From assembly GCA_964630365.1 (NCBI GenBank), contig CAZVUP010000002.1:10188-74187 (forward strand): 64,000 nucleotides of DNA, read 5' to 3'. Source of the stretch: an uncultured Muribaculaceae bacterium (GTDB taxonomy: Bacteria; Bacillota_I; Bacilli_A; RF39; UBA660). Position numbers and translations under genes: made by a program. Each line of letters begins with the position of its first letter. Positions within the stretch are counted from its first letter, which is position 1. Positions 3,649 through 45,351 of the stretch are shown here, in pieces. The notes under the pieces were generated by a model that was given only the letters and a program-made list of their open reading frames with translations, searched no databases and had not been told where the DNA came from.

Positions 3649-3688
3649 TTAAAAAGTAAAGAAAAAGCCAGCATATTGATTGACTGAC

Positions 3689-8222: not shown

Positions 8223-8223
8223 A

Positions 8224-8791: not shown

Positions 8792-8927
8792 TTCAATATC
8801 ACCGCCTTTAATATATCACATAGGAATTATTTATCAAATTATATTTTTATTATTAATATTTATTTGACACTAAATTTACATGATAAAAAAGATTAATAAA
8901 TATTATAATATTTATATAATGATAAAG

Positions 8928-8960
8928 GAAAAAAGAAATAGTTCGAACTAACTATTTCTT
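8928..8960. terminator. hairpin terminator downstream of 8965..9930 gene
   Basis: GAAATAGTT cgaact AACTATTTC with T-runs on both strands. Confidence 0.4.
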
Positions 8961-8964
8961 TTTT

Positions 8965-9930: not shown

Positions 9931-9951
9931 ATTATCACTTCCCTAACATTA

Positions 9952-11322: not shown

Positions 11323-12441
11323 TCAACTATTACATTTAGAAATATTAAGTATAATTCCAATAGATGCCATTGATACAAGTAAAGAAGACCCACCATAAGA
11401 AAGAAATGGTAATGTAACCCCAGTAACTGGAATTAAGCCAACTACTACCATTAAATTCATAGTAGCTTGAAAAATCATCTGGAAAATAATACCAAATGAA
11501 AGATATTTTGCAAATTTATCATTACATTTACACGCAATCATTATTCCTCTATAAAATAACAAAGCAAAAAGACCAATCACAATAATAGAACCAACTATCC
11601 CAAACTCTTCTGCTATTACAGAAAAAATAAAATCAGTTTGTGGCTCTGGTAAATAAAAATGTTTCTGTACCGAATTTAAATATCCTGTACCGAGTAACCC
11701 ACTTGGCCCTATTGCATATAAACTTTGAATTATTTGAAATCCAGTTCCCAACTCATCACGCCAAGGATTAATAAAAGATGTAATTCTATCCATCCGATAA
11801 GGAGCTATTAAAATTAAACCGATTATCCCAGCAATTCCTAAAAGTCCACCATAAGCAAAAAATCTTAATGAAACTCCTGAAATAAAAAGAAGAGAAATAA
11901 TAGAAATGAACATAATTACTCCCGTACCTAAATCTGGTTGAAGCATAATTAATCCAAAAAACAATAAAACAATAAAAAGAATTGGAAAAATCCCTTTTAA
12001 ATAGTTTTTAATATATTTCTCACTATTTGCTAAATATTTACTCGTAAAAATTAATAAACTAAGCTTTGCAGCTTCACTAGGCTGAATACCTAAAGAACCA
12101 ATTCCAAACCAACTTCTACTACCATTTCTTACACTTCCTATACCTGGAATTAATACAAGAATAAGCAATATAAATGATACTAAAAGTATTATATTAGAAT
12201 ATTTATAATAAATCTTATAATCTAATTTTGAAATATACATCATTACTATCAATCCAATAAAAAAAAATATAGTTTGATACTTTAAATAATGAAAAGAATC
12301 ATTAAATTTATAAGCCGCCCAAACGCTTGAAGAAGAATATATCATTATTAACCCAAATAACGCTAAAGAAATAACTGTAAGAAATAATATTTTATCCGTC
12401 TTCTGCATATTATCACCTAATAAATTATATTTACAAAACAA
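11323..12441 (-). CDS. ftsW: SEDS family peptidoglycan polymerase (FtsW/SpoVE/RodA)
   Basis: 10-TM protein with the SEDS motif PSEAAKLSLLIF. Positioned after mraY, as spoVE/ftsW is in Bacillus. Confidence 0.85.
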   Translation of the reverse strand: MFCKYNLLGDNMQKTDKILFLTVISLALFGLIMIYSSSSVWAAYKFNDSFHYLKYQTIFFFIGLIVMMYISKLDYKIYYKYSNIILLVSFILLILVLIPGIGSVRNGSRSWFGIGSLGIQPSEAAKLSLLIFTSKYLANSEKYIKNYLKGIFPILFIVLLFFGLIMLQPDLGTGVIMFISIISLLFISGVSLRFFAYGGLLGIAGIIGLILIAPYRMDRITSFINPWRDELGTGFQIIQSLYAIGPSGLLGTGYLNSVQKHFYLPEPQTDFIFSVIAEEFGIVGSIIVIGLFALLFYRGIMIACKCNDKFAKYLSFGIIFQMIFQATMNLMVVVGLIPVTGVTLPFLSYGGSSLLVSMASIGIILNISKCNS

Positions 12442-12462
12442 AAAAAAAGAACAAATTGTTCT

Positions 12463-13443
12463 TTATACCCAAACTCCAAAAATAATACCTGCCATAGCTA
12501 AGATCAAGCCCATAACCCAAAATAATTTAACTATGTCTGTTTCAGCCCAACCAAGTTTTTCAAAATGATGATGAAGTGGTGTCATTAAAAATAGTTTTCT
12601 ATGTAATACTTGTACCCAAAATGTTTGAATAATTACACTAAGTGTTTCAACAACAAAGACTGAGGCAACTACAAGTAGAGTCAATTCTCTATGTGTAAGT
12701 ATTGCGATAGCTCCCATAACAGCACCAAGCGCTAATGACCCTGTATCACCCATAAAAACTTTAGCTGGATATGTATTATATATTAAAAATCCAATTAATG
12801 AACCGACTAATATCAAACTAAAAATACCAATATCTTCAAAGCCAACAGACAATGAAATTAGAGAAAATGCAATAAAAGCAATAGCCGATAAACCACCTGC
12901 TAAACCATCTAAACCATCAGTTAAATTTACAGCATTACTGGCACCTACTAAAATAAATAGTATTGCTAAACCATATAGCCAGCCAAATTCCAAATCAATA
13001 TGAAGTGTTCCAACAACCCAAGCTGTTTGTCCACCACTACGCATATAAATATAGAAAAAACCAATTGCAATTAAAACTTGCATAAATAATTTTTGATATG
13101 TCGTTAATCCTTCATTATTACCTTTTCTAACTGATAAAAAGTCATCTAAAAAACCTATCGCAGAATATCCCAAAAAAACTAATAAAACAATACCTAAATT
13201 AGATGTATAAGATATTTTATCAGTAATAATCAATGCCATAGTAGCAACAATAGTTGGAATAATAAAAATCAAGCCACCCATAGTTGGAGTTCCTTCTTTT
13301 TTTCGATGTGCTTCTCCAACAAAGATCGATATTTTTTGACCAACTCGCAATTTTTTTAATATTGGTAAAAGTAATAACCCTAATACAGTTGAAGATAAAA
13401 AACCAATCATAATAGCAAAAATTGCTTTAGTTAAAAGTAGCAT
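12463..13443 (-). CDS. mraY: phospho-N-acetylmuramoyl-pentapeptide transferase
   Basis: PTMGG, NAVNLTDGLDGLAGG and FMGDTGSLALG motifs characteristic of MraY. Confidence 0.9.
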   Translation of the reverse strand: MLLLTKAIFAIMIGFLSSTVLGLLLLPILKKLRVGQKISIFVGEAHRKKEGTPTMGGLIFIIPTIVATMALIITDKISYTSNLGIVLLVFLGYSAIGFLDDFLSVRKGNNEGLTTYQKLFMQVLIAIGFFYIYMRSGGQTAWVVGTLHIDLEFGWLYGLAILFILVGASNAVNLTDGLDGLAGGLSAIAFIAFSLISLSVGFEDIGIFSLILVGSLIGFLIYNTYPAKVFMGDTGSLALGAVMGAIAILTHRELTLLVVASVFVVETLSVIIQTFWVQVLHRKLFLMTPLHHHFEKLGWAETDIVKLFWVMGLILAMAGIIFGVWV

Positions 13444-15094: not shown

Positions 15095-15132
15095 AAAGTA
15101 TCACCAAAATAATTTTAACATACTTTTATGTA

Positions 15133-15783
15133 TTATTTAAGAAAAAGTCTTACTTTACTGCCATCTTCTACTTTTTGAAAGGCAGCAGGTGCTTGTTCAA
15201 AAACTATTTCTCCTGAACCTTCAACAACAACTTCAAAATTACCTAATTCTTTTTTAGCCTCCTGAATACTTTTTCCAACTACATTGGGAACAATATATGT
15301 AACTTTATCATTCCATTCTAAATCTTTTTCTAGCCCATTATCTTGCTTTTCAATTTTTAATGCGTCAATTATATCCAACAAAATTCTTCTCGCAATTGGT
15401 GCAGTTGTATAACTAGATAACATGGCTGTATTCTTAGGATTATCAATAGCTAAATATAAAACTGCTTCCGGATCATTTGATGGAACTACAGCCATAAAAG
15501 ACATTATATAATTATTAACTAAATAATGACCATTTTCTTGTTTTTGAGCAGTACCAGTTTTACCACCTATTCTATAACCATCTATATAAGCACTTTTTCC
15601 TCCACCTTTAGCAACAACACTCTCAAGAGCATATCGCATAATTGCTGATGTTTTAGAACTGACAACTTTTCTCCTCAAAATTGTCTTATATTCTTTAACT
15701 ACTGTATTTGTATTATCGCTTATATCTTTAACAATATGAGGTTTATACAAATATCCTCCATTAACAACAGCCGATACAGCCAT
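15133..15783 (-). CDS. class B PBP (SpoVD-like), 3' portion of a gene split by an inserted element: KTG motif plus one PASTA domain
   Basis: AVSAVVNGGYLYKP and GGKTGTAQ transpeptidase motifs. C-terminal PASTA (VPNVVGKSIQEAKKELG). Upstream in frame: stop-TPLQQV-MAV. Confidence 0.8.
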   Translation of the reverse strand: MAVSAVVNGGYLYKPHIVKDISDNTNTVVKEYKTILRRKVVSSKTSAIMRYALESVVAKGGGKSAYIDGYRIGGKTGTAQKQENGHYLVNNYIMSFMAVVPSNDPEAVLYLAIDNPKNTAMLSSYTTAPIARRILLDIIDALKIEKQDNGLEKDLEWNDKVTYIVPNVVGKSIQEAKKELGNFEVVVEGSGEIVFEQAPAAFQKVEDGSKVRLFLK

Positions 15784-17428
15784 TACCTGTTGTAACGGGG
15801 TCTAATAAATGAAACTTTTTGCCTAAATTATCAGAAGTAGTATATACACTTTCTCCTGTCTTAATAAAAATATCCAATTTAATTTGTTTATCACTTTGTT
15901 TATGAACTATTATTCTATCTATTATCTCATTAAATATATCACTATAACATTTATCATCTTCTAAGCATTTTTCTAATGCATTCTTTATTTCACTAATTTT
16001 GTTTTCAATATTATTTTTATCTTTTTTATTACTTTTTAATTCATTCATTTTTGTTTGATAAATAGTTAAATCTTCATTAATTAAATCTACTTGCTTTTTG
16101 TAGTCTTCTTTAGATAAGTACTCTTCCATAACAAGTTCTAGTAGTTTATCTTTTTTATTATTTAAAACTATTATTTTAGATTCTAAATTTTTTATTTCTA
16201 TTTCATTATTATTAGTTTCTAAATAATTCTTACATTCGCTTAATATTTCATCAAAGATATTATTTCTTCTTTTAAATAGTATATTAAACACATCTTTAAA
16301 TACTTCATCCAATTCAAGTTCAAATACTCTAGGATTAGAACAACCTTTTAAACTTTCACGCCTATAAACTTGGCATTCCCATACAGGATTATTCTTTCTC
16401 TTACCAGCACTTGATCTGTGATATGTAAGATTATGACAGCCGCAATATATTTTTCCTGAATAAGTATATCTATTTTGAAATACTGCTTTATTAATAGTAC
16501 GATTGGTAAAACTATCTTGTCTCTCTTTTAATTTAACATTAGCTCGTTCCCATAATTCTTCAGATACTATTGGTGGAACATTATCATAGTCCTTATAAAC
16601 AATCCAATCAGATTCATTTAATCTTTTCTTTTGTTTAGTACGATAATCTAATACTTTTGATTTATGTCCACAATAATATCCTTTATATTTAGGATTTTCT
16701 ATAATTCTTGTAAGTATTGTTGTATCTATTCTTTTGCCAGTTTTACTTTTATAACCTAAACTATAAAGATATCTTGATACTTTAGATAATCCATCAGTAG
16801 TATTAGCATATCTATTAAATATTATTTTAATCATTTCTGCTTGTGCTTCATCTATTACTAATTTTCCTTTATCTTTTACATAACCATAAATATTAGAACA
16901 TCCTAACACTACACCATTATCAATACTTCTCTTCATCCCAAATGAAACTCTTTCAGAAAGTCTCCTAACTTCATCTTGAGCAATTGAAGACATCATTGTA
17001 AGTCTGAGTTCAGAATCAGGTAATATCGTATTAATATTATCATTTAAGAAATATACACCAACACCATTAGATAATAGTTCTTGTGTATAGATAATACTAT
17101 CTAGTGTACTTCTTGAAAATCTTGATATTTCTTTAGTTAAGATTAAATCAAACTTATGTTTTTTAGCGTCTTCAATCATTCTTAGAAATTCTTCACGTTT
17201 TTTAACTTGTGTTCCTGATATTCCTTCATCAATATATGAACCTATAAATTCCCAGTTAGGAACTTTACTAATATAATCATTAAAGAAAGATATTTGATTA
17301 GATAAAGAATGTAATTGCTCATCTTTATCAGTAGATACTCTTGCATAAAAACATACTTTCAAATTTAATTCTTGTAATGGAACACCTTTCATAATATTAT
17401 TCCTAACTGTATATAGGTCCATAATCAC
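15761..17428 (-). CDS. large serine recombinase (SpoIVCA/CisA/phage-integrase type)
   Basis: Resolvase N-domain with catalytic Ser context (FYARVSTDKDEQLHSLSNQ). Recombinase domain. Zn-ribbon (CGCHNLTYH...WECQVYRRESLKGC). C-terminal coiled coil. Its last 23 nt overlap the PBP 3' piece. Confidence 0.9.
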   Translation of the reverse strand: MIMDLYTVRNNIMKGVPLQELNLKVCFYARVSTDKDEQLHSLSNQISFFNDYISKVPNWEFIGSYIDEGISGTQVKKREEFLRMIEDAKKHKFDLILTKEISRFSRSTLDSIIYTQELLSNGVGVYFLNDNINTILPDSELRLTMMSSIAQDEVRRLSERVSFGMKRSIDNGVVLGCSNIYGYVKDKGKLVIDEAQAEMIKIIFNRYANTTDGLSKVSRYLYSLGYKSKTGKRIDTTILTRIIENPKYKGYYCGHKSKVLDYRTKQKKRLNESDWIVYKDYDNVPPIVSEELWERANVKLKERQDSFTNRTINKAVFQNRYTYSGKIYCGCHNLTYHRSSAGKRKNNPVWECQVYRRESLKGCSNPRVFELELDEVFKDVFNILFKRRNNIFDEILSECKNYLETNNNEIEIKNLESKIIVLNNKKDKLLELVMEEYLSKEDYKKQVDLINEDLTIYQTKMNELKSNKKDKNNIENKISEIKNALEKCLEDDKCYSDIFNEIIDRIIVHKQSDKQIKLDIFIKTGESVYTTSDNLGKKFHLLDPVTTGNGCIGCC

Positions 17429-17433
17429 ACCTC

Positions 17434-17640
17434 CTAAGTTAATAGTTTATAATTATTTAAATCATTTATATATTTATCATCAATTTTACTTTTTTCTATC
17501 TCAATTTTATTTAATAATTTATTAATACAAAAATTATACATTCCATCATCTATAATATTTCTTCCTTTTAAATATTCAAGTAATTTAATACTTGTTTCTA
17601 TTTCAATTATTCTAGATGGAACTTTATCAATACTCTCCAT
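17434..17640 (-). CDS. small hypothetical protein (68 aa) immediately upstream of and co-oriented with the recombinase
   Basis: ORF ends 6 nt before the recombinase start. No motif recognised. Confidence 0.35.
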   Translation of the reverse strand: MESIDKVPSRIIEIETSIKLLEYLKGRNIIDDGMYNFCINKLLNKIEIEKSKIDDKYINDLNNYKLLT

Positions 17641-17685
17641 ATACTTTGTCCTTTCTTTTAAGTTTATTTTTAAAAAAACTAAAAA

Positions 17686-17707
17686 AGAACTTAAGGCATT
17701 AAGTTCT
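17686..17707 (-). terminator. hairpin terminator
   Basis: AGAACTTAA ggca TTAAGTTCT perfect 9-bp stem followed by a T-run on the minus strand. Confidence 0.35.
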
Positions 17708-17811
17708 ACAAAAAATTTGAAAACTTAAATACCACAAAGGACAAAATTAGACTAAATCATCATTTGAAATAAATTAAGTTTTCAAATAACAATTTAGTTC
17801 TTATTCAATAA

Positions 17812-18237
17812 TTAATATTTTATAATTTTTCTAGCTATTTCATAGCCATCAATATTATCAGGTAATAATTCATCATGTTCTAGTACTAAGAATAATTCTG
17901 CAATTACATCTTCCTTTTCTTTAAATGATAATCTTTCAAATATTCGTATCATCTTTTTATATTCTTTTGGATAAAGACGATAAAGATTATAATTATAGTT
18001 CCCATACTCATTAATCTCATTAACTAAATAAGGATAATCAATACTACTTGGATTAAATACTTCTATATCAATACTATCATCAAGTAAACTAGGATTAACC
18101 TCACTTAAACTATTAATTTGATCTCTATCCCATAAGTTAAAAACATAGCTAATAAATTTTAGTTTATTTTCTTTATCAAGTTCATTTATTTTTAAAACTA
18201 ATTCTTTTACTTCATTACTTGTATTTCTTAAATACAT
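17812..18237 (-). CDS. hypothetical protein (141 aa), element cargo
   Basis: ORF only. No motif recognised. Confidence 0.4.
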   Translation of the reverse strand: MYLRNTSNEVKELVLKINELDKENKLKFISYVFNLWDRDQINSLSEVNPSLLDDSIDIEVFNPSSIDYPYLVNEINEYGNYNYNLYRLYPKEYKKMIRIFERLSFKEKEDVIAELFLVLEHDELLPDNIDGYEIARKIIKY

Positions 18238-18480
18238 ATTAAAGGCACTCCTTCATCTTCAATTTAAGCCATTTTAAGAGACTTTATTTTTTATACTAAT
18301 AACCGATTAAGATTAATATCAAAGTCCCTTATTTCTTAAATTAAGTATCAACAAATTAAAATTTAGTTTTAATATTTATCACTTAAAAAAATAAATTTTG
18401 CAATAGTTTTTTTTAAATTTTTTTAATTTATTTTCTAATCTTATTACCATAATATTTTTCCTCCTTCCATTTTAAATTCA

Positions 18481-18678
18481 TTATCTTTTTTCATATCTTT
18501 CTATATAAGATCTATATCCTAGTTCTAATAAATAGATAAACATTTTATTCATACTAAAATTATTTTTAATTGCTAAAAGCTGTATTCTAGTTTTTAAATT
18601 ATTATCTATTCTTAGAGTGATTCTTTCAGTACATCTCATAAATTTTTTCCTCCATTCTTTAAAATATAGAGTAGCCAC
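18481..18678 (-). CDS. putative ribbon-helix-helix (CopG/Arc-like) DNA-binding protein
   Basis: 65 aa. RITLRIDNNLKTRIQLLAIKNNFSMNKMFIYLLELGY fits a beta-strand plus two-helix RHH fold. GTG start lies inside a copy of the repeated motif. Confidence 0.4.
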   Translation of the reverse strand: MATLYFKEWRKKFMRCTERITLRIDNNLKTRIQLLAIKNNFSMNKMFIYLLELGYRSYIERYEKR

Positions 18679-18930
18679 TTTTCACTTTTTTTAGGTATTT
18701 TTTAGGTAAAAAGACTTGCATTTTTTTAATGGGCATAAGGAGAATGCACCACAAACTTATATTTATCTTATAAAATAAAGCAAATATAGTGGTGTCATTA
18801 CTATTTTTGCACTTGCAAAAATGACTACTTTTATAGTAGTAAGTGGCTACTCATATACAAACCATCCTTTTATACCAACAAAAAAAAGTGGCTACTCTTT
18901 CTCTTAAAAGTGCCCACTCATGACTATTTC
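18667..18930. repeat. four copies of a 12-13 bp motif AAGTGGCTACTC (one inverted at the RHH gene start, three direct upstream)
   Basis: Copies at 18671-18686 (minus), 18846-18860, 18888-18902 and a variant AAGTGCCCACTC at 18912-18926. Confidence 0.55.
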
Positions 18931-19247
18931 ATTAAAAATATGTGCTTCCAATACTTTTTAATTAATAAAACCATCTCCCTCCAATGAAAAAAAGAGAAGA
19001 TTATAGTTCTTCTCCATATAATTTTTTCATATCATACACTATTATAACTATTCACAAACACAAGTCAAGCTCATTTTGTGTCCAATTCATGTCATACTAT
19101 GTACAATTTATGTCGCAAAAAAATGCATGTTTTCTTCACAATTCTTGCATATTTTACTATATTATACTACTTGACAATATGAAGTCAAGCCGATTTTGGT
19201 CTGGATTTGGACTTATTTGATCCGTTTTTGGTATGATTTGTGTTTTG

Positions 19248-21038
19248 TTAATTTTCATCATAATTTTTTTCAATAATAATGTCATCAATTTCTTTCTTAT
19301 GTGAACTTGAATAATTATTTGTCTGTAAGTCAATATAGAATTCATTATCTTTCATAAGTTCATTATGAGTACCTTGTCCAACAATATTACCTTTATTTAA
19401 AACAATTATTTTATCAGCAATCTTCATTACATCTTTTTTGTGAGTTATAATTATTATTGTATGATCTAATTTTAAATTTTCAAAAATATCTTTAATTTTT
19501 TCAACTAACAAGGTATCTAATGAACTTGTAACCTCATCAAAGATTAATATTTCAGCTTTTGATAATAGTGTCCTTGCTATTGCTAGTAATTGTTTTTGTC
19601 CTCCACTAAAGTTTGTAGCATTCTCTGTTAAAATAGTATTATATCCTTTTGGTAAACTCATTATATAATCATGAATACCAACTCTTTTACAAGCTTCAAT
19701 TTGATGCTCTATATTTGAATCTATTAGAGATAAATTTCTTTTAATGCTCATATTAAATATAAATGGAGATTGATTAACTCCAACTACATTAGTAGAGTAT
19801 ACATCTTTTGAATAATCATATAAATTTTCTCCATCTATTAGAATTTGACCATCATCTATTTTATATTTTCTGAGAATCAAATTTGTAATAGTTGTTTTAC
19901 CAGAGCCACTATGACCAACAAGTGCAGTAATTTTATTTGGTTCAGCAACAAAACTAATGTTTTCTATATTTCCTTTATTTTTAGATTTATAAGAAAAATT
20001 CACATTTTTAAATTCAACTAATCCATCAATATAATCATTGTCATTCATTCCAAAAGTTATTTGTTGTTTGCTTGAATAATTTAATATATTATTAATTCTT
20101 GTTATAGAAATAGACCATTCTCTAATTTGTCTTGAATATCCCATGAGATCATTTGTATTAGACATTATATTTTCAAAATATGTAATTAATAGTATTAACA
20201 TATTTACTTCATATCTACCTTTTAATACAAAAAACACTAATACTAAATATAATAATACTTTACCAAAATGTATTATAAATGGTAATAAACTTGATCTAAT
20301 ATTAACATATTTTCTCTTTGACATATATTGGTCAGACCATCTATTAGCTATTATATAAAAATTATTTTTTATCTTATCATAAATATTAAAAACTTTAATT
20401 TCACCTAATCCATTTAATATTTGTGACAAATTATCAGTTAGTTTATCTCTATATTTTTGTTGGCCTCTTAAATATTTTGTGCTCATTATATTACAATAAT
20501 CAAAAGACTTTAAATATAAATATTCTAATATCAAAACAAAAATACCAATATAAATATTTGTTTTTAAAAAGATAAATATCATTATAATAACTTTAACAAA
20601 AACAACAATTATTTCACAAACATTATCAATCATTTCAGATAAATTAGCAGTATCAGTGTTTACAGTATTTAAAATTGTTCCCTTAGATAATTTATCTGAA
20701 AACTCTGTGTCGTAGGTAAATACTTTATCTACAATTTTCTCTCTTAAATTTTTATAACTATACTTAAAATTATGAGAATATGAAACATAATTCAGATACC
20801 AGAATAAATTATATGCAATATATGTAATAGCCAACAAGCCTATATTCATATATGTTGCACTTGCATTACCATTAGTTACCTGATAAATAATATTGGAAGT
20901 AAATACTGGAATTAATAAACTAGATAGGTGTGCCATTATAGAACCGAAGAATAATAAAAATATCCATTTTTTAGTACCTTTAACTAACTTAAAAAAATCT
21001 CTTATTATTTTTATATTATCTTTTATCATAGTTACCAC
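19248..21038 (-). CDS. ABC transporter, fused permease/ATP-binding half-transporter (exporter type)
   Basis: N-terminal 6-TM domain. Walker A GHSGSGKTT, signature LSGGQKQLLAIARTL, Walker B ILIFDEVTSSLD. Confidence 0.85.
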   Translation of the reverse strand: MVTMIKDNIKIIRDFFKLVKGTKKWIFLLFFGSIMAHLSSLLIPVFTSNIIYQVTNGNASATYMNIGLLAITYIAYNLFWYLNYVSYSHNFKYSYKNLREKIVDKVFTYDTEFSDKLSKGTILNTVNTDTANLSEMIDNVCEIIVVFVKVIIMIFIFLKTNIYIGIFVLILEYLYLKSFDYCNIMSTKYLRGQQKYRDKLTDNLSQILNGLGEIKVFNIYDKIKNNFYIIANRWSDQYMSKRKYVNIRSSLLPFIIHFGKVLLYLVLVFFVLKGRYEVNMLILLITYFENIMSNTNDLMGYSRQIREWSISITRINNILNYSSKQQITFGMNDNDYIDGLVEFKNVNFSYKSKNKGNIENISFVAEPNKITALVGHSGSGKTTITNLILRKYKIDDGQILIDGENLYDYSKDVYSTNVVGVNQSPFIFNMSIKRNLSLIDSNIEHQIEACKRVGIHDYIMSLPKGYNTILTENATNFSGGQKQLLAIARTLLSKAEILIFDEVTSSLDTLLVEKIKDIFENLKLDHTIIIITHKKDVMKIADKIIVLNKGNIVGQGTHNELMKDNEFYIDLQTNNYSSSHKKEIDDIIIEKNYDEN

Positions 21039-21048
21039 ATCCTAACTT

Positions 21049-21900
21049 TTATACTCCAACTAATTCAGATTCTAATATACTAATTATTTCTTTTATTGCA
21101 TTAATTGTATCTTCAAATTTAACCCCTTTTGCATATAAATTTTTTGAAACATATTCATTCCATAAATTATTCATGTTATTATCATCAATCAAATCATTAA
21201 TAACTTCATTAAATTGTTCTATATCAATATTTGTTTCTCTTCTTTTAAAAGTATTATTAATTGCTTTAATCAAGTTATTTTTATTTAATTCATTCATCTT
21301 TATATTGATTAATATATAGACATCATAAAAATCCTTTAATCTGGTATTTAATAAACCTATAGTAACAATAGTTTGAAATTTTTCTGCTAGTACTGTCTCA
21401 AGTGTATATGACATTATAGGTATTTTTTTATTCTCAAAAATAGAATTATAATTATATTTCATCTCTTTTGGTGTAATAACATCTCCTGTTGTTAATTCAA
21501 CAGTAATATAGGTTTTATTATTATCTAACTTAGATAATATATTTAATCTAAAACCTCCATATTCATCTTCTAATCTAATATCTTTAATAGAAACAACTTG
21601 AAATGATACACCATCATCAATATCTATATTAAGTATTTCATTAAATACTTTTTCTACATCGTTTTTTGTAAGAGGGATACCCTTTAAAGTTGCATCCATA
21701 TCTTTAGTAGTTCTTTCATCATCTCCAATAATAGAAGTAAGTAATAATCCACCTTTTAATATTATTTGCCCTCTATAATTACTTATAGATATTCTTTCTA
21801 AAATTCTTTCAAAGTAAAATAATTGATAAAATTTTTGTGAAATATCACTATTACCATGTGCTTTTTTAGATATGATGTTTTTTAATTTGTCAGAATTCAT
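21049..21900 (-). CDS. AbiEii/AbiGii-type nucleotidyltransferase toxin (DUF1814)
   Basis: N-terminal FYFERILERISISNYRGQIILKGGLLL matches the AbiEii family N-terminus. 283 aa. Confidence 0.7.
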   Translation of the reverse strand: MNSDKLKNIISKKAHGNSDISQKFYQLFYFERILERISISNYRGQIILKGGLLLTSIIGDDERTTKDMDATLKGIPLTKNDVEKVFNEILNIDIDDGVSFQVVSIKDIRLEDEYGGFRLNILSKLDNNKTYITVELTTGDVITPKEMKYNYNSIFENKKIPIMSYTLETVLAEKFQTIVTIGLLNTRLKDFYDVYILINIKMNELNKNNLIKAINNTFKRRETNIDIEQFNEVINDLIDDNNMNNLWNEYVSKNLYAKGVKFEDTINAIKEIISILESELVGV

Positions 21901-22511
21901 TAAAGTAACACCTCCATATATTCAAGAACTTTTTTATCAATATTTAATTTTTTTGCATATTTCATTAGTTTTAATAAATTTTTATCTTTTCTTTCGGCAT
22001 ACCATTTTAATGCTTTTGTAAAAATCTCTTTATCCATATGATTTCTATATTTAACTATATCACAAATAGTTCTTTCTAAATCATAAGTTCTAAGTTTCAT
22101 TCCAAAAGGAGATTCAACAGTAGTTAAACCTAGGTCTAAAAACTCTTTTTTTACATAATGTAATTGAACATTTTTATCCTTACTTAAACTACCACTATAT
22201 CCAACTGGTACAGTCATATCAAAATAAAGTGGTGTTCTATCAGATAAATCATAAAAATAAAGCGCTGTAGAATGAGAAAAAACACAGTTTTTAGATTTTA
22301 ATTGATATTTATAATAATCATCACAAAAAGAATTAGTAATTGCATAATATCCTCTTGTAATTCTTTCTAATTTATTTTGTTCAACTAATCTTGTTAATTC
22401 AATAGTATTAATATTTGCATCCTTAACTTGTTTTGTTGTCACATATCCGTTATTTTCATTTGCAATTTTAATAATTTTCTCAGCATTAGTCATATTATCA
22501 CTTTCCTTCAT
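21900..22511 (-). CDS. AbiEi-type antitoxin/transcriptional regulator
   Basis: N-terminal winged-helix-like block (YVTTKQVKDANINTIELTRLVEQNKLERITRGYY). Start overlaps the stop of the AbiEii gene. Confidence 0.65.
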   Translation of the reverse strand: MKESDNMTNAEKIIKIANENNGYVTTKQVKDANINTIELTRLVEQNKLERITRGYYAITNSFCDDYYKYQLKSKNCVFSHSTALYFYDLSDRTPLYFDMTVPVGYSGSLSKDKNVQLHYVKKEFLDLGLTTVESPFGMKLRTYDLERTICDIVKYRNHMDKEIFTKALKWYAERKDKNLLKLMKYAKKLNIDKKVLEYMEVLL

Positions 22512-23135
22512 TTTAATTTTATCATTTATTTAAAACTAAGTAAATGTATTTTGTTGCTTTTATACTTATTTTTTTATTTTTTTGCGTTTTTTTACAACAT
22601 TATATATAAACAAAAAAGCCAACTTGTCTTGTCAGCTTTTCTGTCAAACATGCATTTATTTATAAATAATGCATCATTCATAAATAAATGTTTACACCTT
22701 TGTAAGCTTTGACATGCTTACACTCACTACTTACTGCTTGAATAATATTTAGTGGCAAAATGAGCTTAATACTCAACAATATCCCATTCCCCATAATCCT
22801 ATCTTAAGTTTTGTAACAATAAATCGTTACATAGCGCTAAAATTACATTTAATGGTTGTTAACTAATCATTTAATACTAAGGGTGTACCACCAAAGGTAA
22901 AATCGCTTTTAACACGACATCACCTCCTAATTTTCGTCATTTTCAAGATAAAATATATACAAGTATACACTTTATCCATCTAACGACAACTAAATTATAT
23001 CATAAATCCCAGTTTTTACCAAGTAAATAAAAGGAAAAAGTCAAATTTTTATGAATAAATTATAATTAAATTCAACATCATACTTTTTCATATATTTACT
23101 AGTAATTCCTATAGTTATAGTAAAGGTATCATTTA

Positions 23136-24392
23136 TTAGACAGTAAGGTGAATTGGTGTAACACTAACTCCCTGTCCAAAAGCACTAGTAGCAAGTTCAA
23201 CATTTCCAACCCTATTTAAAGGAAATAAAATACCACTTCCTTCACCATTTAAATCAATACCTGTCTTTTCACCAAAACCAAATTTATTAATATAAGAAAA
23301 AAGTCTTTCTTTACCCAAAAGTTGCCCTATTCTGACAAAACCAGGATTACAAGAATTTTGTAATACTTGAAGAAAAGTCTGATCACCATGTCCTCCTGCC
23401 TTCCAACATTTTAAAATACTACCATCTACGTTTACTTTACCCGAATCATAAAAATGATCATTAAAAATATCAATAACGCCTTCTTCAACAGCTGAAGCCA
23501 TTGTAACCACTTTAAAAGTACTTCCTGGCTCATAAGATGCCCAAATAGGTAAATTTCTACTAAGAGTTGCACTATCATAATCTTTATAATTATTTGCATC
23601 AAAATCAGGTGTAGAACTCATTCCTAGTATTTCACCATTTTTAGGATTAACTACAATCGCTAAAGCCATATCTGGTTGAAACATATCAACAATATTATCC
23701 ATCTCGCGCTCTAAAGATTTTTGTATATTAATATCTATTGTTAAATTAATATTCATCCCACTTGTAGGGGCAACATAAACATCAGTCATATTAATCTTAT
23801 TTCCATGGGCATCAGCAAAATACTTTATTGCTCCATTTTTACCAGTCAAATACTTATCATATTGTAGTTCTAATCCAGCTAATCCTTGATTATCGATACC
23901 AACATACCCTAATGAATGAGAAAGTAAATCTTTATATGGATAATTTCTTTTAGCTTCTTTTACTAAATAAACACCTTCTAAGTTTAATTTATCAATTCTA
24001 TCAGCAATATCATAAGATAATCTTCTCCCTTCAGGATGAACTCTTTCTATTGAAACTTTTTTCATAACATGCTTTTTCATTTCATCATAACTAACATTAA
24101 GAATCTTAGAAAGCTCAGTAATAGCTTTTTTCTTTTCCTTAATTTGATTTGGTATCAACACTAAAGATGTTGTCGTCAAATTATCAGCAAGAACATTACC
24201 ATTTCTATCAAGTATTTTCCCTCTGTCTGCTTCAATTTCTAAATTTCTACTCCATAAGTCTTTAGCTAAATTATTTAACTTTTTATATTGAAAAAACTGA
24301 ATATAAAAAACTTTAAATATTATTAAAATAAATAATAGTAACATAATTAAAAATAAAACTTTAATACGTCTATCTATTCCTTTTTTAAACAT
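23136..24392 (-). CDS. class B PBP (SpoVD-like), 5' portion of the gene split by the inserted element: TM anchor, dimerisation domain, SxxK and SxN motifs
   Basis: MFKKGIDRRIKVLFLIMLLLF TM helix. STFK (SxxK) and SCN (SxN) transpeptidase motifs. Ends GQGVSVTPIHLTV-stop, exactly where PBPs continue with TPLQ...AVSAV. Confidence 0.85.
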   Translation of the reverse strand: MFKKGIDRRIKVLFLIMLLLFILIIFKVFYIQFFQYKKLNNLAKDLWSRNLEIEADRGKILDRNGNVLADNLTTTSLVLIPNQIKEKKKAITELSKILNVSYDEMKKHVMKKVSIERVHPEGRRLSYDIADRIDKLNLEGVYLVKEAKRNYPYKDLLSHSLGYVGIDNQGLAGLELQYDKYLTGKNGAIKYFADAHGNKINMTDVYVAPTSGMNINLTIDINIQKSLEREMDNIVDMFQPDMALAIVVNPKNGEILGMSSTPDFDANNYKDYDSATLSRNLPIWASYEPGSTFKVVTMASAVEEGVIDIFNDHFYDSGKVNVDGSILKCWKAGGHGDQTFLQVLQNSCNPGFVRIGQLLGKERLFSYINKFGFGEKTGIDLNGEGSGILFPLNRVGNVELATSAFGQGVSVTPIHLTV

Positions 24393-24578
24393 ATTCCACC
24401 TCTGATATAGAATATGAAAAATTATTATCTAAAATGAAAAAAACTCTTATAGACACTTTAAATACTCATATTTAAAAAATATTCTTAAATTATGAAAACT
24501 AGCATTATAAATAATTATAAAAATATGTTTACATGAAAAAAAATATATATTAAAATATGCACAAAAGGAGGAATAATT

Positions 24579-35668: not shown

Positions 35669-36229
35669 TTATACTTTTATTTTAGAAATTATTCCCAACT
35701 TGTAATTAAATGTCTTTTTAGAAATAACACCAGTAGATGGATTATAATAAACAACTATTTTTACTTCTAACTTGCCATCAGGTTCAATAACTTTACCACT
35801 AACATCATCAAGTTTTATTGAAACTGGAGAAATAAGTTTTTTAAAATAATTATCAGTATAGTCAGGACTAGTCATTAAAGTAACCATTTCAATTGGAACT
35901 GTTCCTTCATTTTTAATAACAGCAATATAAGTTATTTCATCTCTAGGAGCATTTAATGTAAAATTCATATCCAATAGTTGACCTGATTCATCTATTTTAA
36001 AAGAACTTGTAGGCTCGACTTCTGACCCCTTTACAGAAGATGACTTCATAACCTCTGAGAAAATAACTTCATAATTACAACTTTTATTTTTCTCTTTTTG
36101 GAGCTGTACTGCTACAACACTAAATCCAATACCTAAACAAACAAGAGTAAAACAAAGAATAATTATAATACAATTTCTAATATTAATTCTTTTTTTCATA
36201 AAAATCACCTTCTTTTTATTGTTCAACAC
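35669..36229 (-). CDS. hypothetical secreted/anchored protein (186 aa)
   Basis: N-terminal signal anchor and a beta-strand-rich mature region. Its start overlaps the pbpB stop. Confidence 0.45.
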   Translation of the reverse strand: MLNNKKKVIFMKKRINIRNCIIIILCFTLVCLGIGFSVVAVQLQKEKNKSCNYEVIFSEVMKSSSVKGSEVEPTSSFKIDESGQLLDMNFTLNAPRDEITYIAVIKNEGTVPIEMVTLMTSPDYTDNYFKKLISPVSIKLDDVSGKVIEPDGKLEVKIVVYYNPSTGVISKKTFNYKLGIISKIKV

Positions 36230-38381: not shown

Positions 38382-38681
38382 TTAGCTATCTTCTACAACA
38401 GATTTTATATTACTATTATTATAACTCAAACCTTGTTGTTCTGCAACTTGCTGTATCTTCGTAAGTGATGCTAATTCATCAATTGTCATAGCAAGAGATT
38501 CATTAGTCTTTTTCTGTTTTTCTATTTCTTTTTTCTGCTTTTCTACTTCAAAATTAATTTCTGCTAATGTAGCTTTCGAAAAAACTATTGAAACCGGTGA
38601 AACAACTAATAATAGTACTGCAACGGTATACAAAAGTTTTTCAAATTTAGAAATCTTAACACGCTTTTTCACCTTTTTCAT
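38382..38681 (-). CDS. ftsL: cell division protein FtsL
   Basis: 99-aa bitopic protein with a coiled coil, between rsmH and pbpB. Confidence 0.6.
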   Translation of the reverse strand: MKKVKKRVKISKFEKLLYTVAVLLLVVSPVSIVFSKATLAEINFEVEKQKKEIEKQKKTNESLAMTIDELASLTKIQQVAEQQGLSYNNSNIKSVVEDS

Positions 38682-44652: not shown

Positions 44653-45351
44653 TCAAATCCGATTGTTTTTAATAAATTCCCTTAAAAGTTTTGTAAGTGC
44701 CCTTTTCTCTATACGTGAAACATAGCTTCTAGAAATACCCATTTTTTTAGAAATTGTTTTTTGTGTTTCCTCATCTACATTTTCTAAACCATACCTATTT
44801 ATTATTATTTTCTTCTCCCGAGGAGTTAATACATCCATATACTCATATAATAATTTAATATTATCTTTCAATTCAATATCATCACAAAAATCAACTTCTT
44901 CAGTCTTTAAAATATCCATAATAGCAATCTCATTACCATCTTTATCATAACCTACTGTTTCATTGATAGAAATATCTTTACTATACTTATTATTCTTTCT
45001 AAAATACATTAATATTTCATTCTCAATACACCTAGCACAATAGGTAGTAATTTTAACACCTTTATCAGGAGAAAAAGTATCTACGCCTTTTATTAATCCA
45101 ATTGTACCAATACTAATTAAATCATCTACATCAGTTTGTTTAGAATCATATTTTTTAACAATATGAGCTACTAATCTTAAATTATGTTCAATTAATTTAT
45201 TCCTACTCTCTAAGTCACCATTAAGCTTCTTTTTAATACACTCATCTTCCTCTTCCGGAGATAAAGGTTCTAAAAAAACATCATTAGAATAACTACCAGT
45301 AAAACAAAATAAACTTTTTAATAAATAAATTAAAAACATATAATCACCCAT
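44653..45351 (-). CDS. sigK: sporulation pro-sigma factor, SigK/SigE family (SigK-like)
   Basis: Pro-sequence, then FLEPLSPEEE, IEHNLRLVAHIVKKY, DLISIGTIGLIKGVDTF, TYCARCIENEILMYFR and ISRSYVSRIEKRAL. Near-identical to the conserved blocks of Bacillus SigK/SigE. Confidence 0.75.
   Translation of the reverse strand: MGDYMFLIYLLKSLFCFTGSYSNDVFLEPLSPEEEDECIKKKLNGDLESRNKLIEHNLRLVAHIVKKYDSKQTDVDDLISIGTIGLIKGVDTFSPDKGVKITTYCARCIENEILMYFRKNNKYSKDISINETVGYDKDGNEIAIMDILKTEEVDFCDDIELKDNIKLLYEYMDVLTPREKKIIINRYGLENVDEETQKTISKKMGISRSYVSRIEKRALTKLLREFIKNNRI

What the first reader, a model, noticed from the sequence alone, without database searches (positions are those of the whole stretch)
15133..24392. 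SpoVD-like class B PBP gene split by a ~7.4 kb recombinase-bearing element
Two ORFs on the same strand, 7.35 kb apart, are the two halves of one class B PBP. The 5' part (23136..24392) carries the TM anchor, SxxK and SxN motifs and ends GQGVSVTPIHLTV-stop. The 3' part (15133..15783) starts, after an in-frame stop, with TPLQQV-MAVSAVVNGGYLYKP and carries KTG and one PASTA domain. A complete two-PASTA PBP2B (36216..38363) sits separately after ftsL. The split gene is therefore the second, SpoVD-type paralog: one PASTA, about 630 aa when joined, followed by mraY and a spoVE/ftsW-like gene, as in Bacillus. The genome also encodes a SigK-like pro-sigma factor. The arrangement parallels the skin element in sigK (excised by SpoIVCA) and SPbeta in spsM. 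I have not seen spoVD as the host gene of such an element and cannot check the literature here.
Basis: partly seen in the sequence, partly recalled or inferred. Interest (0 to 1): 0.9.

Follow-up and report, generated by a model that had tools for sequence, protein, structure and literature searches.

The report
Mobile recombinase element splitting sporulation gene spoVD
A sporulation cell-wall gene (spoVD) of an uncultured gut bacterium is cut cleanly in two by a 7.4 kb mobile element carrying its own recombinase, and the same element family sits at exactly this spot in dozens of related gut species, which points to a cut-out-and-rejoin switch like the known 'skin' element, in a gene where none had been reported.

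Summary
The ORFs 23136..24392 and 15133..15783 (minus strand) are the two halves of one 633-aa class B PBP. Rejoined, it passes NCBI's SpoVD equivalog model. Between them lies a 7,358-bp element (15791..23148) bounded by a CA crossover dinucleotide. Its reconstructed attP has perfect 12-bp inverted arms. The element carries a large serine recombinase (LSR) at its 3' edge, a conserved 68-aa partner ORF, an Arc-like repressor, an ABC exporter and an AbiE module. It has no phage or transfer genes.

The element belongs to a large family. 118 of 120 close LSR clusters read into spoVD, and 47 of 48 metagenome loci have the spoVD 3' part directly after the LSR, in hosts forming 33 clusters. LSR relatedness is decoupled from host relatedness, which indicates horizontal spread. 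Two further LSR families insert at the SxxK and SxN motifs of the same gene. attP-type junctions and an uninterrupted site exist in nature. The 3' fragment shows pN/pS of 0.05-0.28 between interrupted genomes.

The most likely reading is a skin/gin-like intervening element excised to restore spoVD in the mother cell. Excision timing, the directionality factor and host sporulation are inferred, not shown. No prior report of spoVD as a target was found.

The parts
23149..24392 (-). spoVD 5' part: TM anchor, PBP_dimer, and the first half of the transpeptidase domain with SxxK (STFK) and SxN (SCN). As an ORF it runs on to a stop at 23136-23138 inside the element (...TPI-HLTV*).
23130..23170 (-). 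attL. The host half ends ...ACACCAATT, the core CA is at 23150-23149, and the element half is CCTTACT + GTCTAATAAATG (the right 12-bp arm of attP, 23141-23130).
15791..23148 (-). Integrative element, 7,358 bp counting one copy of the CA core. All genes are co-oriented with spoVD. GC is about 0.20-0.27, against 0.29-0.31 in the flanking gene halves.
21900..22511 (-). AbiEi antitoxin/transcriptional regulator (left-end cargo).
   Evidence: Pfam PF13338; PADLOC AbiEi 4.5e-71
21049..21900 (-). AbiEii nucleotidyltransferase toxin (type IV TA / abortive-infection module).
   Evidence: Pfam PF08843 6e-36; PADLOC 6.3e-91
19248..21038 (-). Fused TMD-NBD ABC exporter (cargo).
   Evidence: Pfam ABC_membrane + ABC_tran; NCBIfam matches all below cut-off
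18680..19247 (-). Conserved non-coding control region. It holds two near-consensus sigma-70-type promoters (19188->19161 and 19068->19041, 11/12 matches) inside a 59-nt direct repeat, a terminator-like hairpin (19015-18993) and three copies of GAGTAGCCACTT.
   Evidence: conserved at 84-87% in L081/L085/L086
18481..18639 (-). 52-aa ribbon-helix-helix (Arc-like) repressor candidate.
   Evidence: PHROG 582 Arc-like repressor 6e-5; 88-96% conserved in many family members
17812..18237 (-). orf141, a conserved core gene of unknown function.
   Evidence: No family hit; present upstream of orf68 in most loci
17641..17811 (-). Highly conserved leader upstream of orf68. It has a 19-bp hairpin, an anti-Shine-Dalgarno stretch (TTTTGTCCTT pairing with AAGGACAAAG) and an intrinsic terminator (AGAACTTAA-N4-TTAAGTTCT + T6).
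17434..17640 (-). orf68, a 68-aa protein whose stop lies 11 nt before the recombinase start. It is the candidate recombination directionality factor (inferred).
   Evidence: Found directly upstream of the LSR in nearly all loci with an LSR of >=68% identity and enough upstream sequence; not detected in four loci with LSRs of about 70% identity (L141, L142, L143, L146); no family hit
15761..17422 (-). Large serine recombinase (553 aa): Resolvase + Recombinase + zinc-ribbon with a coiled-coil insert. Its last 9 codons and its stop codon are host spoVD DNA read out of frame.
15771..15811 (-). attR. The element half is CATTTATTAGAC (left 12-bp arm, 15811-15800) + CCCGTTA, the core CA is at 15792-15791, and the host half is ACAGGTAATGG...
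15133..15790 (-). spoVD 3' part: the second half of the transpeptidase domain with KTG, plus one PASTA domain.
44653..45351 (-). Context: uninterrupted SigK-type pro-sigma factor, an indicator of a late mother-cell programme.
   Evidence: NF004471 300.6 vs cut-off 252; TIGR02846 285.8 vs 298.65
36216..38363 (-). Context: the separate two-PASTA division-type class B PBP after the ftsL-like ORF (38382..38681).
11323..13443 (-). Context: mraY (12463..13443) and a SEDS protein of FtsW/SpoVE type (11323..12441) downstream of the split gene.

Best explanation
The gene is a SpoVD-type sporulation transpeptidase. It is interrupted between the codons for ...TPI and QQV... by a 7.36-kb integrative element that entered by large-serine-recombinase (LSR) recombination between a 40-bp palindromic attP and an attB lying in conserved transpeptidase-coding DNA.

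While the element is integrated, only a truncated protein lacking the KTG motif can be made. The LSR, most likely helped by the small conserved protein orf68 encoded just upstream (a candidate directionality factor), recombines attL with attR at the CA core. This removes the element as a circle and restores an exact 633-aa reading frame.

In B. subtilis, SpoVD is needed only in the mother cell, for spore cortex synthesis. Excision confined to that terminal cell would therefore let the host sporulate normally while the spore inherits the element. This is the same logic as skin in sigK, SPbeta in spsM and gin in gerE.

Unlike skin, this element belongs to a family that is still horizontally mobile, carries changing cargo (here AbiE and an ABC exporter), and always uses this one site.

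Shown here: the split, the exact junction, the att sites, the site specificity of the family, its horizontal spread, natural attP junctions, and an uninterrupted site.

Inferred: that excision happens during sporulation and in the mother cell, that orf68 is the directionality factor, and that the host makes spores.
For: 1. Exact split of a SpoVD equivalog. The Pfam profile coordinates abut. Orthologs are contiguous across the junction. The rejoined protein passes TIGR02214, 704.4 vs 688.

2. Hallmarks of an LSR site. Identity between attL and attR is limited to CA. The reconstructed attP is CATTTATTAGAC-N7-CA-N7-GTCTAATAAATG. The element-side sequence is identical in different hosts up to the CA core, and the sequences diverge within a few bases beyond it.

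3. Natural attP-type joints match the prediction in contigs from 5 samples (L081-L085).

4. Strict target specificity. 118 of 120 LSR clusters at 89-94% identity have C-terminal tails that are out-of-frame spoVD. 47 of 48 metagenome loci have the spoVD 3' part starting at the same residue right after the LSR, and 45 of those have a full open 3' ORF. The hosts form 33 clusters at 90% identity and 15 at 70%.

5. Two other LSR families (39-45% identical) split the same gene at SxxK and at SxN. This convergence on a gene dispensable in growing cells resembles the way sigK is targeted.

6. Purifying selection on the 3' fragment between genomes that are all interrupted: pN/pS 0.05-0.28, for example 22 synonymous vs 4 nonsynonymous and 64 vs 20.

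7. In the window's species all 7 contigs carry the element, and no intact allele above 85% identity exists among 5.8 billion protein clusters.

8. Architecture like known intervening elements. The recombinase sits at the edge next to the 3' fragment (compare Galperin et al.). A small ORF is coupled to it, as GirX is to GirC. The upstream leader is tightly conserved and structured.

9. The host keeps an intact pro-SigK gene. In B. subtilis, spoVD is a sigma-E mother-cell gene required for cortex formation (PMC517825).
Against: - No excision in sporulating cells has been observed. The attP joints can also arise in tandem arrays (L085, L135), so they do not prove free circles.
- No B. subtilis-type sigma-E or sigma-K promoter match was found in the element or upstream of spoVD.
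- LSR relatedness is essentially uncorrelated with host relatedness (Spearman 0.105; LSR 90% vs SpoVD 44% identity). The same species carries different LSR variants and cargo. This is the behaviour of an ordinary active mobile element, and it means purifying selection may partly date from uninterrupted periods.
- Site-3 relatives carry a relaxase and a coupling protein, like plain conjugative or mobilisable elements.
- The host is uncultured, and its sporulation is inferred only from sigK, spoVD and literature predictions for related orders.
- A few 3' fragments are decayed (L121, L134), and the one uninterrupted allele seen in a prevalent species is frameshifted at 2.7x coverage.
Confidence: 0.55

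Rival explanations
1. Safe-harbour insertion with no developmental role. The LSR families use conserved spoVD motif-coding DNA simply as a widely available attB in a gene that is useless during growth. Carriers are sporulation-defective or belong to lineages giving up sporulation. Excision serves only transfer of the element.
For: - There is extensive horizontal transfer and turnover.
- Cargo is variable, including conjugation genes at site 3.
- Up to two elements can sit in one gene (L103, L132, L151).
- In one prevalent species and its relatives, all 120 best-scoring C-terminal clusters are truncated forms.
- No sporulation-type promoter was found.
- Some fragments are decayed.
- The literature predicts repeated loss of sporulation in these orders.
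Against: - 45 of 47 3' fragments are full open ORFs across 33 host clusters.
- pN/pS of 0.05-0.28 between interrupted genomes is far below neutral.
- The pro-SigK gene is intact in the window.
- Three unrelated LSR lineages converging on one mother-cell gene, each leaving a frame that rejoins exactly, is what is seen for sigK.
- An element that abolished transmission by spores should not be fixed in abundant gut anaerobes.
Confidence: 0.3
2. Reversible population-level switch ('active lysogeny' type). The element excises and re-integrates in growing cells, turning sporulation capacity on and off in subpopulations rather than acting in the mother cell only.
For: - The LSR reaction is reversible in principle when a directionality factor is present.
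- Within-species polymorphism exists: site 1 occupied, site 3 occupied, or empty.
- Different LSR variants occur in near-identical hosts, which implies the site is vacated and refilled.
- The strong sigma-70-type promoters, the repressor and the attenuator-like leader suggest vegetative control circuits.
Against: - The 7.4-kb element has no replication or partition function that would maintain an excised circle in dividing cells.
- The AbiE toxin-antitoxin module would penalise loss of the element.
- No contig with a rejoined, in-frame allele of the window's species was found.
Confidence: 0.1
3. Decayed pseudogene or assembly chimera. The two ORFs are remnants or a mis-join, and the recombinase is incidental.
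For: None beyond the fact that the source is a metagenome assembly.
Against: - The identical arrangement is found on 7 contigs from 6 samples.
- Both halves are free of stops and frameshifts and retain all catalytic motifs.
- The junction is exact to the base, and the att architecture is repeated in about 50 other loci.
Confidence: 0.02

Closest known systems
gin element in gerE of Bacillus cereus ATCC 10987 (GirC LSR + GirX directionality factor; PMC5595907)
   Same: - It is a small, non-prophage element inside a mother-cell sporulation gene.
- An LSR plus a tiny partner protein with no recognisable motif carry out the reaction.
- Rejoining is precise.
- Horizontal spread was inferred without any transfer genes of its own.
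   Different: - The target is spoVD, an enzyme of cortex synthesis, rather than a transcription factor.
- There is one LSR here, not three.
- The family is far more widespread and diverse in hosts.
- Excision here has not been demonstrated.
skin element in sigK (SpoIVCA; B. subtilis, C. difficile and at least 12 other Firmicutes; bioRxiv 10.1101/2022.02.25.481979, PMC5025042)
   Same: - The LSR sits at the element edge next to the 3' gene fragment.
- Elements share nothing but the recombinase.
- Sizes range from a few kb upward.
- Different lineages use different sites in the same gene.
   Different: - skin is mostly vertically inherited and prophage-derived, and its excision controls a regulator and hence developmental timing.
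- Here the elements are actively exchanged between distant hosts (LSR 90% vs host proteins 44-62% identity).
- The interrupted gene is a structural enzyme.
SPbeta in spsM (SprA/SprB), vfbin in spoVFB, yin in yabG (PMC4191935, PMC5499854, PMC10747680)
   Same: - A mobile element with a serine integrase interrupts a mother-cell gene.
- The concept is 'regulated gene integrity' / active lysogeny.
   Different: - Those are prophages or prophage-like elements.
- The window element has no phage structural, lysis or replication genes and no close relative in phage collections.
LSR-driven conjugative or mobilisable transposons and islands (Tn5397 TndX, Tn4451 TnpX, SCCmec Ccr; PDB 3g13 'putative conjugative transposon recombinase')
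   Same: - The catalytic domain is closest in sequence to 3g13 (7e-38).
- There are weak sub-threshold NCBIfam matches to CcrC/CcrB/XisF.
- Site-3 relatives in spoVD carry a MobL relaxase and a TraG/VirD4 coupling protein.
- Tandem accretion occurs, as in SCC composites.
   Different: - The window element itself has no relaxase or coupling protein.
- Its target specificity for one position in a sporulation gene is not a feature of those elements.
fdxN/nifD/hupL elements of Anabaena heterocysts (XisF etc.)
   Same: A gene is restored by programmed excision in a terminally differentiated cell, and the fdxN element uses an LSR (XisF).
   Different: The phylum, the cell type and the target genes all differ. 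The NCBIfam XisF score is 93.6, far below the cut-off of 375.

Membership tests
Sporulation gene-intervening elements (skin / SPbeta / vfbin / gin / yin type) | The element interrupts the coding sequence of a sporulation gene expressed in the mother cell. | tested here: met
   The rejoined gene passes the SpoVD equivalog TIGR02214. Mother-cell (sigma-E) expression is known for B. subtilis spoVD (PMC517825) and is assumed, not shown, for this host.
Sporulation gene-intervening elements (skin / SPbeta / vfbin / gin / yin type) | The element encodes its own site-specific (serine) recombinase. | tested here: met
   A 553-aa LSR lies at the 3' edge.
Sporulation gene-intervening elements (skin / SPbeta / vfbin / gin / yin type) | Precise excision would regenerate an intact, functional reading frame. 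| tested here: met
   Joining at the CA core gives a 633-aa protein identical in register to the intact orthologs inspected.
Sporulation gene-intervening elements (skin / SPbeta / vfbin / gin / yin type) | Excision takes place during sporulation, in the mother cell. | not testable with these tools
   Only static assemblies are available. attP-type joints and one uninterrupted allele show that the recombination products exist, but not when they form.
Sporulation gene-intervening elements (skin / SPbeta / vfbin / gin / yin type) | A directionality factor and/or the recombinase is under sporulation-specific control. | tested here: inconclusive
   orf68 is a conserved candidate. No sigma-E/K consensus match was found. 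A conserved leader with a terminator and an anti-SD stretch is present, but its signal is unknown.
Sporulation gene-intervening elements (skin / SPbeta / vfbin / gin / yin type) | The host forms endospores. | tested here: inconclusive
   A pro-SigK-type sigma factor and spoVD are present in the window. Related uncultured Bacilli orders are predicted to contain sporulators (PMC10868615).
Large serine recombinases (serine integrases) | An N-terminal resolvase catalytic domain with the nucleophilic serine, a recombinase domain, and a zinc-ribbon domain with a coiled-coil insert. | tested here: met
   PF00239, PF07508 and PF13408 all score above their cut-offs. The YARVSTDKDEQ motif and a long heptad-rich stretch around residues 400-490 are visible in the sequence.
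Large serine recombinases (serine integrases) | Short att sites with a 2-bp crossover, an imperfectly palindromic attP, and no long direct repeats. | tested here: met
   The core is CA only. attP has 12-bp perfect arms 7 nt from the core. attB is only weakly symmetric (7 of 20 positions). No long flanking direct repeats were found.
SpoVD (TIGR02214, stage V sporulation protein D) | The full-length score exceeds the curated equivalog cut-off. The protein has one PASTA domain and the SxxK, SxN and KTG motifs. | tested here: met
   704.4 vs 688; one PASTA domain; motifs are visible in the sequence. PGAP and IMG name some intact homologs 'stage V sporulation protein D'.
SpoVD (TIGR02214, stage V sporulation protein D) | Dispensable for growth and required for cortex synthesis. 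| not testable with these tools
   Indirect only. Interrupted alleles are common, and fixed in at least one species, so the gene cannot be essential for growth.
Prophage / defective prophage | Phage structural, packaging, lysis or replication genes. | tested here: not met
   PHROGs hits are only integrase, an Arc-like repressor and an ABC transporter. No relative closer than 45% identity exists in IMG/VR or INPHARED.
Integrative conjugative / mobilisable element | A relaxase and/or a type IV coupling protein or oriT. | tested here: not met
   None is present in the window element. They are present in the unrelated site-3 spoVD elements L181-L183.
AbiE type IV toxin-antitoxin / abortive infection | Adjacent AbiEi and AbiEii genes. 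| tested here: met
   PADLOC gives AbiEi 4.5e-71 and AbiEii 6.3e-91, and the genes overlap by one base. Activity was not tested.

The most novel reading that the evidence does not exclude
spoVD is a convergent docking hot-spot for at least three unrelated LSR element families in uncultured gut spore-formers: small defence/cargo islands, islands carrying RiPP-type gene clusters, and conjugative or mobilisable elements. They dock at the DNA encoding its SxxK, SxN and TPIQQ motifs. Excision in the mother cell would both restore cortex synthesis and liberate element circles that are released when the mother cell lyses. On this reading, sporulation itself becomes a regular launch point for horizontal gene transfer in the gut. 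The conserved terminator/anti-SD leader upstream of orf68-LSR would be the switch.
Probability: 0.2. Interest if true: 0.8.

Novelty: new member of a known kind. Interest (0 to 1): 0.62.

Why it matters
- **A new target class.** Known intervening elements sit in regulators and in coat or dipicolinate genes: sigK, spsM, spoVFB, gerE, yabG, cotJC and spoIIID. If the rejoining occurs, spoVD adds the spore-cortex transpeptidase to this list.
- **A wider host range.** The strategy would be widespread in abundant, uncultured, small-genome gut Bacilli, not only in model Bacillus and Clostridium species.
- **Effects on genome annotation.** A gene split into two or three pieces may be scored as absent or as a pseudogene. 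MAG-based predictions of sporulation ability, including reports that some of these orders lack spoVD, may therefore be biased.
- **Natural experiments.** The three insertion sites lie in the catalytic motifs of a PBP, which offers test cases for how serine integrases choose conserved coding DNA.
- **Possible tools.** The many LSR/attP/attB sets with a defined 40-bp site and a candidate directionality factor could be useful for genome engineering.
- **A link to gene flow.** The cargo (AbiE, exporters, RiPP-like clusters, conjugation genes) ties sporulation to the movement of defence and competition genes in the gut.

Tried and rejected
- **Sporulation-promoter scan.** Patterns for sigma-K (AC-N16/17-CATANNNTA) and sigma-E (ATA-N15-18-CATAYAHT) were run over 15700-24600 on the gene strand. 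There were no hits in intergenic DNA and none upstream of spoVD. This is uninformative, because the consensus may not transfer to this lineage.
- **Rfam at E<=1 over 15000-24600.** Nothing was found.
- **Prophage reading.** Rejected. There are no structural-gene hits, and only 38-45% identical LSRs in IMG/VR and under 40% in INPHARED.
- **Within-species pN/pS in the prevalent host (L175-L180).** Only 2 variable sites in 660 nt, so the test has no power. It was replaced by between-genome comparisons.
- **Intact alleles of element-bearing species.** The intact sequences already fetched were searched. None was above 87% identity, but that set is biased towards relatives of the window.
- **Order-level placement of the host from the literature.** The Onthousia protologue lies beyond the stored text. 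The host is therefore described only as uncultured gut Bacilli.
- **Mageeney et al. 2020.** The supplements that were available were checked for transpeptidase or spoVD disruptions. None were found.
- **Decayed pseudogene and chimera readings.** Rejected on the recurrence of the arrangement and the exactness of the junction.
- **Structure prediction of orf68 and orf141.** Not run. No alignment could be submitted, and the fold of a small helical protein would not identify a directionality factor.

Full report
**1. The observation**

On the minus strand, ORF 23136..24392 (418 aa) and ORF 15133..15783 (216 aa) lie 7.35 kb apart.
- Pfam places PBP_dimer and Transpeptidase profile positions 2-167/299 in the first ORF. 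It places Transpeptidase 170-298/299 plus one PASTA domain in the second. The two are adjacent pieces of one domain.
- A scan of GTDB species representatives with the joined protein returned 80 uninterrupted orthologs at 63-82% identity, nearly all full length. All come from gut MAGs labelled Bacilli, 'Tenericutes', 'Mycoplasma sp. CAG:877' or Candidatus Onthousia/Scybalousia.
- The 14 orthologs inspected all read FGQG.S.TPIQQV.A[VI]S straight through the junction.
- The window reads ...GQGVSVTPI|HLTV* on the 5' side and *TPLQQV|MAVSAV... on the 3' side.
- The rejoined protein is 633 aa, the length of nearly all of the 120 best intact homolog clusters. It scores 704.4 bits on the NCBIfam equivalog TIGR02214 (SpoVD), whose cut-off is 688.
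- The other class B PBP in the window (36216..38363) has two PASTA stretches and follows an FtsL-like ORF. It scores 332.5 on the SpoVD model and best resembles PBP2X-type division PBPs.
- PGAP and IMG name some of the intact homologs 'stage V sporulation protein D'.
- The same split with the same element is on 7 contigs from 6 samples, so it is not an assembly error.

**2. Anatomy of the insert**

*Boundaries.* Comparison of attL, attR and the orthologs' attB fixes the crossover at a CA dinucleotide: 23150-23149 in attL and 15792-15791 in attR. The element is 15791..23148, 7,358 bp.

*Attachment sites.* The reconstructed attP is CATTTATTAGAC-CCCGTTA-CA-CCTTACT-GTCTAATAAATG. It has perfect 12-bp inverted arms 7 nt from the core. 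attB is only weakly symmetric. A 2-bp core with a palindromic attP and no long direct repeats is the signature of serine integrases.

*Genes.* All are co-oriented with spoVD. From the 5' side they are:
- AbiEi and AbiEii (PADLOC 4.5e-71 and 6.3e-91)
- a fused ABC exporter
- a 570-bp conserved non-coding stretch, with two 11/12 sigma-70-type promoters inside a 59-nt direct repeat and three GAGTAGCCACTT motifs
- a 52-aa Arc-like ribbon-helix-helix protein
- orf141
- a structured leader
- orf68
- a 553-aa large serine recombinase with Resolvase, Recombinase and zinc-ribbon domains

*Recombinase ORF.* It crosses attR, so its last nine codons and its stop are spoVD DNA read out of frame.

*What is absent.* There are no phage structural, replication, relaxase or coupling genes. 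GC is lower than in the flanks.

**3. The element belongs to a large family that uses exactly this site**

- The LSR has more than 120 database clusters at 89-94% identity. Their C-terminal tails after ...KKFHLLDPVT differ (TGNGCIGCC, TNNSR, TSYSS...KWRNTI). These tails have the same pattern as out-of-frame translation of different species' spoVD. 118 of 120 are of this kind.
- In a metagenome scan, 48 loci had a complete LSR (>=55% identity) and at least 700 nt downstream. In 47 of them the spoVD 3' part begins at the same residue directly after the LSR. 45 have a full open 3' ORF, 2 are decayed, and 1 is a tandem array. The host fragments fall into 33 clusters at 90% identity and 15 at 70%.
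- The element-side sequence TTTCATTTATTAGACCCCGTTACA is the same in different hosts, and the host-side sequences diverge within a few bases of the CA core.
- LSRs of 43-47% identity are not next to spoVD.
- Where both gene halves are visible, the elements measure about 4.9-9.6 kb. Others exceed 10 kb.
- orf68 sits immediately upstream of the LSR in nearly all loci with an LSR of at least 68% identity and enough upstream sequence. tblastn did not detect it in four loci with LSRs of about 70% identity (L141, L142, L143, L146). orf141 and the Arc-like gene are usually present. AbiE recurs at the left end. The rest of the cargo varies.

**4. The family is mobile**

- Between the window and a 1.2-Mb scaffold (L086) the LSR is 89.9% identical. 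SpoVD-C, MraY and FtsW are 44%, 53% and 62% identical.
- Over 820 pairs, LSR identity and host-fragment identity are essentially uncorrelated (Spearman 0.105). Near-identical LSRs occur in hosts only 60-70% identical, and LSRs differing by up to 13% occur in hosts 97-100% identical.
- One very prevalent species has the exact LSR sequence on 83 and 210 contigs, in scaffolds up to 1.27 Mb. It carries the same LSR with two different cargo sets: a YcaO/radical-SAM/SPASM cluster with a 40-aa ORF, or LysR, an EF-G-like protein and alanine racemase.
- The site is therefore repeatedly filled, emptied or remodelled.

**5. Recombination products exist in nature**

- Contigs from four samples (L081-L084) join the element's right end (window 15791) directly to its left end (window 23159...). 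The sequence TTTCATTTATTAGACCCCAATA-CA-CCTTGTGGTCTTTTAAATGATACC matches the predicted attP.
- L085 and L135 are tandem arrays of two related elements joined by attP-type junctions. Such joints therefore validate the boundaries and the existence of a circular intermediate at some time, but they are not proof of free circles in those samples.
- In the prevalent species, one contig (L184) has spoVD continuous across all insertion sites, although with a frameshift at 2.7x coverage.

**6. spoVD is a hot-spot**

- In L151 and L132 a second element with its own LSR (40-45% identity to the first) splits the gene inside the active-site motif (YEPGSTF|K).
- In L103 a third kind of element splits it at the SxN motif (NSCN|PGF). 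In those genomes the gene is in three pieces.
- A database search with the C-terminal third of the prevalent species' SpoVD returned 120 best clusters at 70-100% identity. All are truncated C-terminal pieces, beginning at about residue 291-298 (32 clusters), 335-364 (74) or 385-425 (12). None is full length.
- In the same species the site-3 element carries an LSR of 576 aa, a TraG/VirD4-type coupling protein and a MobL relaxase. That is an ICE/IME-like element.

**7. Is the split gene still under selection?**

Between pairs of genomes that all carry a site-1 element, the 3' fragment has pN/pS of 0.05-0.28.
- L118-L132: 22 synonymous, 4 nonsynonymous differences
- L117-L120: 21 and 10
- L129-L143: 64 and 20
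- A tight cluster of six strains: 0.09-0.28

Neutral decay would give about 3.4 nonsynonymous changes per synonymous one. This is supporting evidence, not proof.

In the window's own species all 7 contigs carry the element. The best intact homolog among 5.8 billion protein clusters is only 85% identical.

**8. Mechanism**

The established chemistry of serine integrases is that attP x attB needs the integrase alone, and attL x attR needs a directionality factor. This is shown for the sporulation elements GirC/GirX and SprA/SprB. Together with the anatomy, it gives the following model.

The LSR integrated the element into spoVD. The integrated state yields a protein lacking KTG. The LSR plus a small partner, most plausibly orf68, excises the element exactly and restores the gene.

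In B. subtilis, spoVD is a sigma-E-controlled mother-cell gene required for cortex formation (PMC517825). Every known sporulation intervening element sits in a mother-cell gene. The parsimonious reading is therefore excision in the mother cell with retention in the forespore chromosome.

The window also encodes an uninterrupted SigK-type pro-sigma factor: NF004471 scores 300.6 against a cut-off of 252, and there is a pro-sequence like that of B. subtilis. Related uncultured orders are predicted to include sporulators (PMC10868615).

How excision would be timed is unknown.
- No Bacillus-type sigma-E/K promoter is recognisable.
- The leader upstream of orf68-LSR is more conserved than the coding DNA. 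It folds into a 19-bp hairpin, an anti-Shine-Dalgarno pairing and a terminator, which suggests tight post-initiation control.
- All genes are co-oriented with spoVD, so read-through from the host promoter is conceivable. This is inference only.

**9. Rivals**

- The main rival is that spoVD is merely a convenient attB in a gene useless during growth, and carriers have impaired sporulation. The mobility, the conjugative relatives, the double insertions and the near-universal interruption in one clade fit this view. The intact fragments, the low pN/pS, the intact sigK and fixation in abundant gut anaerobes argue against it.
- A reversible vegetative switch is possible but lacks any means of maintaining the circle.
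- Artefact and pseudogene readings are excluded.

**10. Comparison with the literature**

Full-text searches combined spoVD with intervening element, serine recombinase, skin, excision, split gene and attB.
- They found no natural spoVD-interrupting element.
- The only co-occurrence is a laboratory secondary insertion of ICEBs1, a tyrosine-recombinase ICE, in B. subtilis spoVD that could not excise.
- Surveys of 'regulated gene integrity' and of sporulation gene sets list sigK, spsM, gerE, cotJC, spoIIID and others, but not spoVD.
- The closest analogue is gin in gerE.

The finding is therefore a new member of a known kind, with added interest from the three sites and the scale of the family.

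Noticed in passing
L151 2271-12293; L132 1-12296; L103 1153-12290: In these related metagenome loci spoVD is in three pieces. A second LSR element (LSR 40-45% identical) is inserted in the SxxK motif (YEPGSTF|K) in L151 and L132, or in the SxN motif (NSCN|PGF) in L103. This is in addition to the site-1 element.
   Followed up: partly
L181-L183 (about 1-10020); same host species as L175-L180: The site-3 (SxN) element carries a 576-aa LSR, a TraG/VirD4-type coupling protein, a MobL relaxase and an N6/N4 methyltransferase, so it looks like an ICE/IME. One host species shows three states: site 1 occupied, site 3 occupied, or uninterrupted (L184, frameshifted at 2.7x coverage).
   Followed up: partly
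L085 3700-13392; L135 10001-15900: Tandem arrays of two related spoVD-type elements are joined by attP-like junctions. In L085 the two LSRs are 76% identical at the nucleotide level. Arrays could arise by homologous recombination of an incoming circle with a resident element.
   Followed up: partly
window 17641-17811 (minus strand): The leader upstream of orf68-LSR is more conserved than the neighbouring coding DNA. It contains a 19-bp hairpin, the stretch TTTTGTCCTT complementary to the orf68 ribosome-binding region, and an intrinsic terminator with a few compensatory changes. It may be an attenuator or riboregulator. There is no Rfam match.
   Followed up: partly
window 18680-19247 (minus strand): Two near-consensus sigma-70-type promoters (TTGACT-16-TATAAT) lie in a 59-nt direct repeat 120 nt apart. 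They are followed by a terminator-like hairpin and three copies of GAGTAGCCACTT (two direct, one inverted) ahead of the Arc-like repressor gene. This looks like an operator/promoter region or a small RNA locus, and it is conserved in other elements.
   Followed up: no
window 15761-15790; P0022, P0054, P0245: The LSR ORF ends in host DNA when the element is integrated (tails of 5-30 aa that differ by host). At an attP junction it is extended by about 25-35 aa. In P0245 it runs on to give an 850-aa protein. Whether the tail matters for activity is unknown.
   Followed up: no
L175-L180, 1-8300: With an identical LSR in one host species, there are two alternative cargo sets. One is a RiPP-like cluster: YcaO, three radical-SAM proteins (two with SPASM domains), a PEP-utilising enzyme and a 40-aa ORF. 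The other has LysR, radical SAM, an EF-G-like GTPase, a methyltransferase, alanine racemase and an LD-carboxypeptidase.
   Followed up: no
window 13523-15094 (minus strand): A 523-aa lysine/glutamate-rich, coiled-coil-like ORF with no family match is wedged between the spoVD 3' part and mraY. A 557-aa ORF occupies the same place in L103, but there is none in L086.
   Followed up: no
window 52156-58857 (minus strand): Five tandem paralogous genes for polytopic membrane proteins of about 440 aa are inserted between divIB/ftsQ and ftsA in the division cluster. The one tested has no Pfam match.
   Followed up: no
window 33009-34826 (minus strand): A 605-aa protein has a long PEPxPEP(S/T/N)PEP proline-rich repeat region followed by a membrane-spanning, alanine-rich C-terminal half. 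Its function is unknown.
   Followed up: no
literature, PMC10868615: That MAG survey reports reduced presence or absence of spoVD in order RF39. Genes split by these elements could be scored as absent, so such calls may need re-checking.
   Followed up: no
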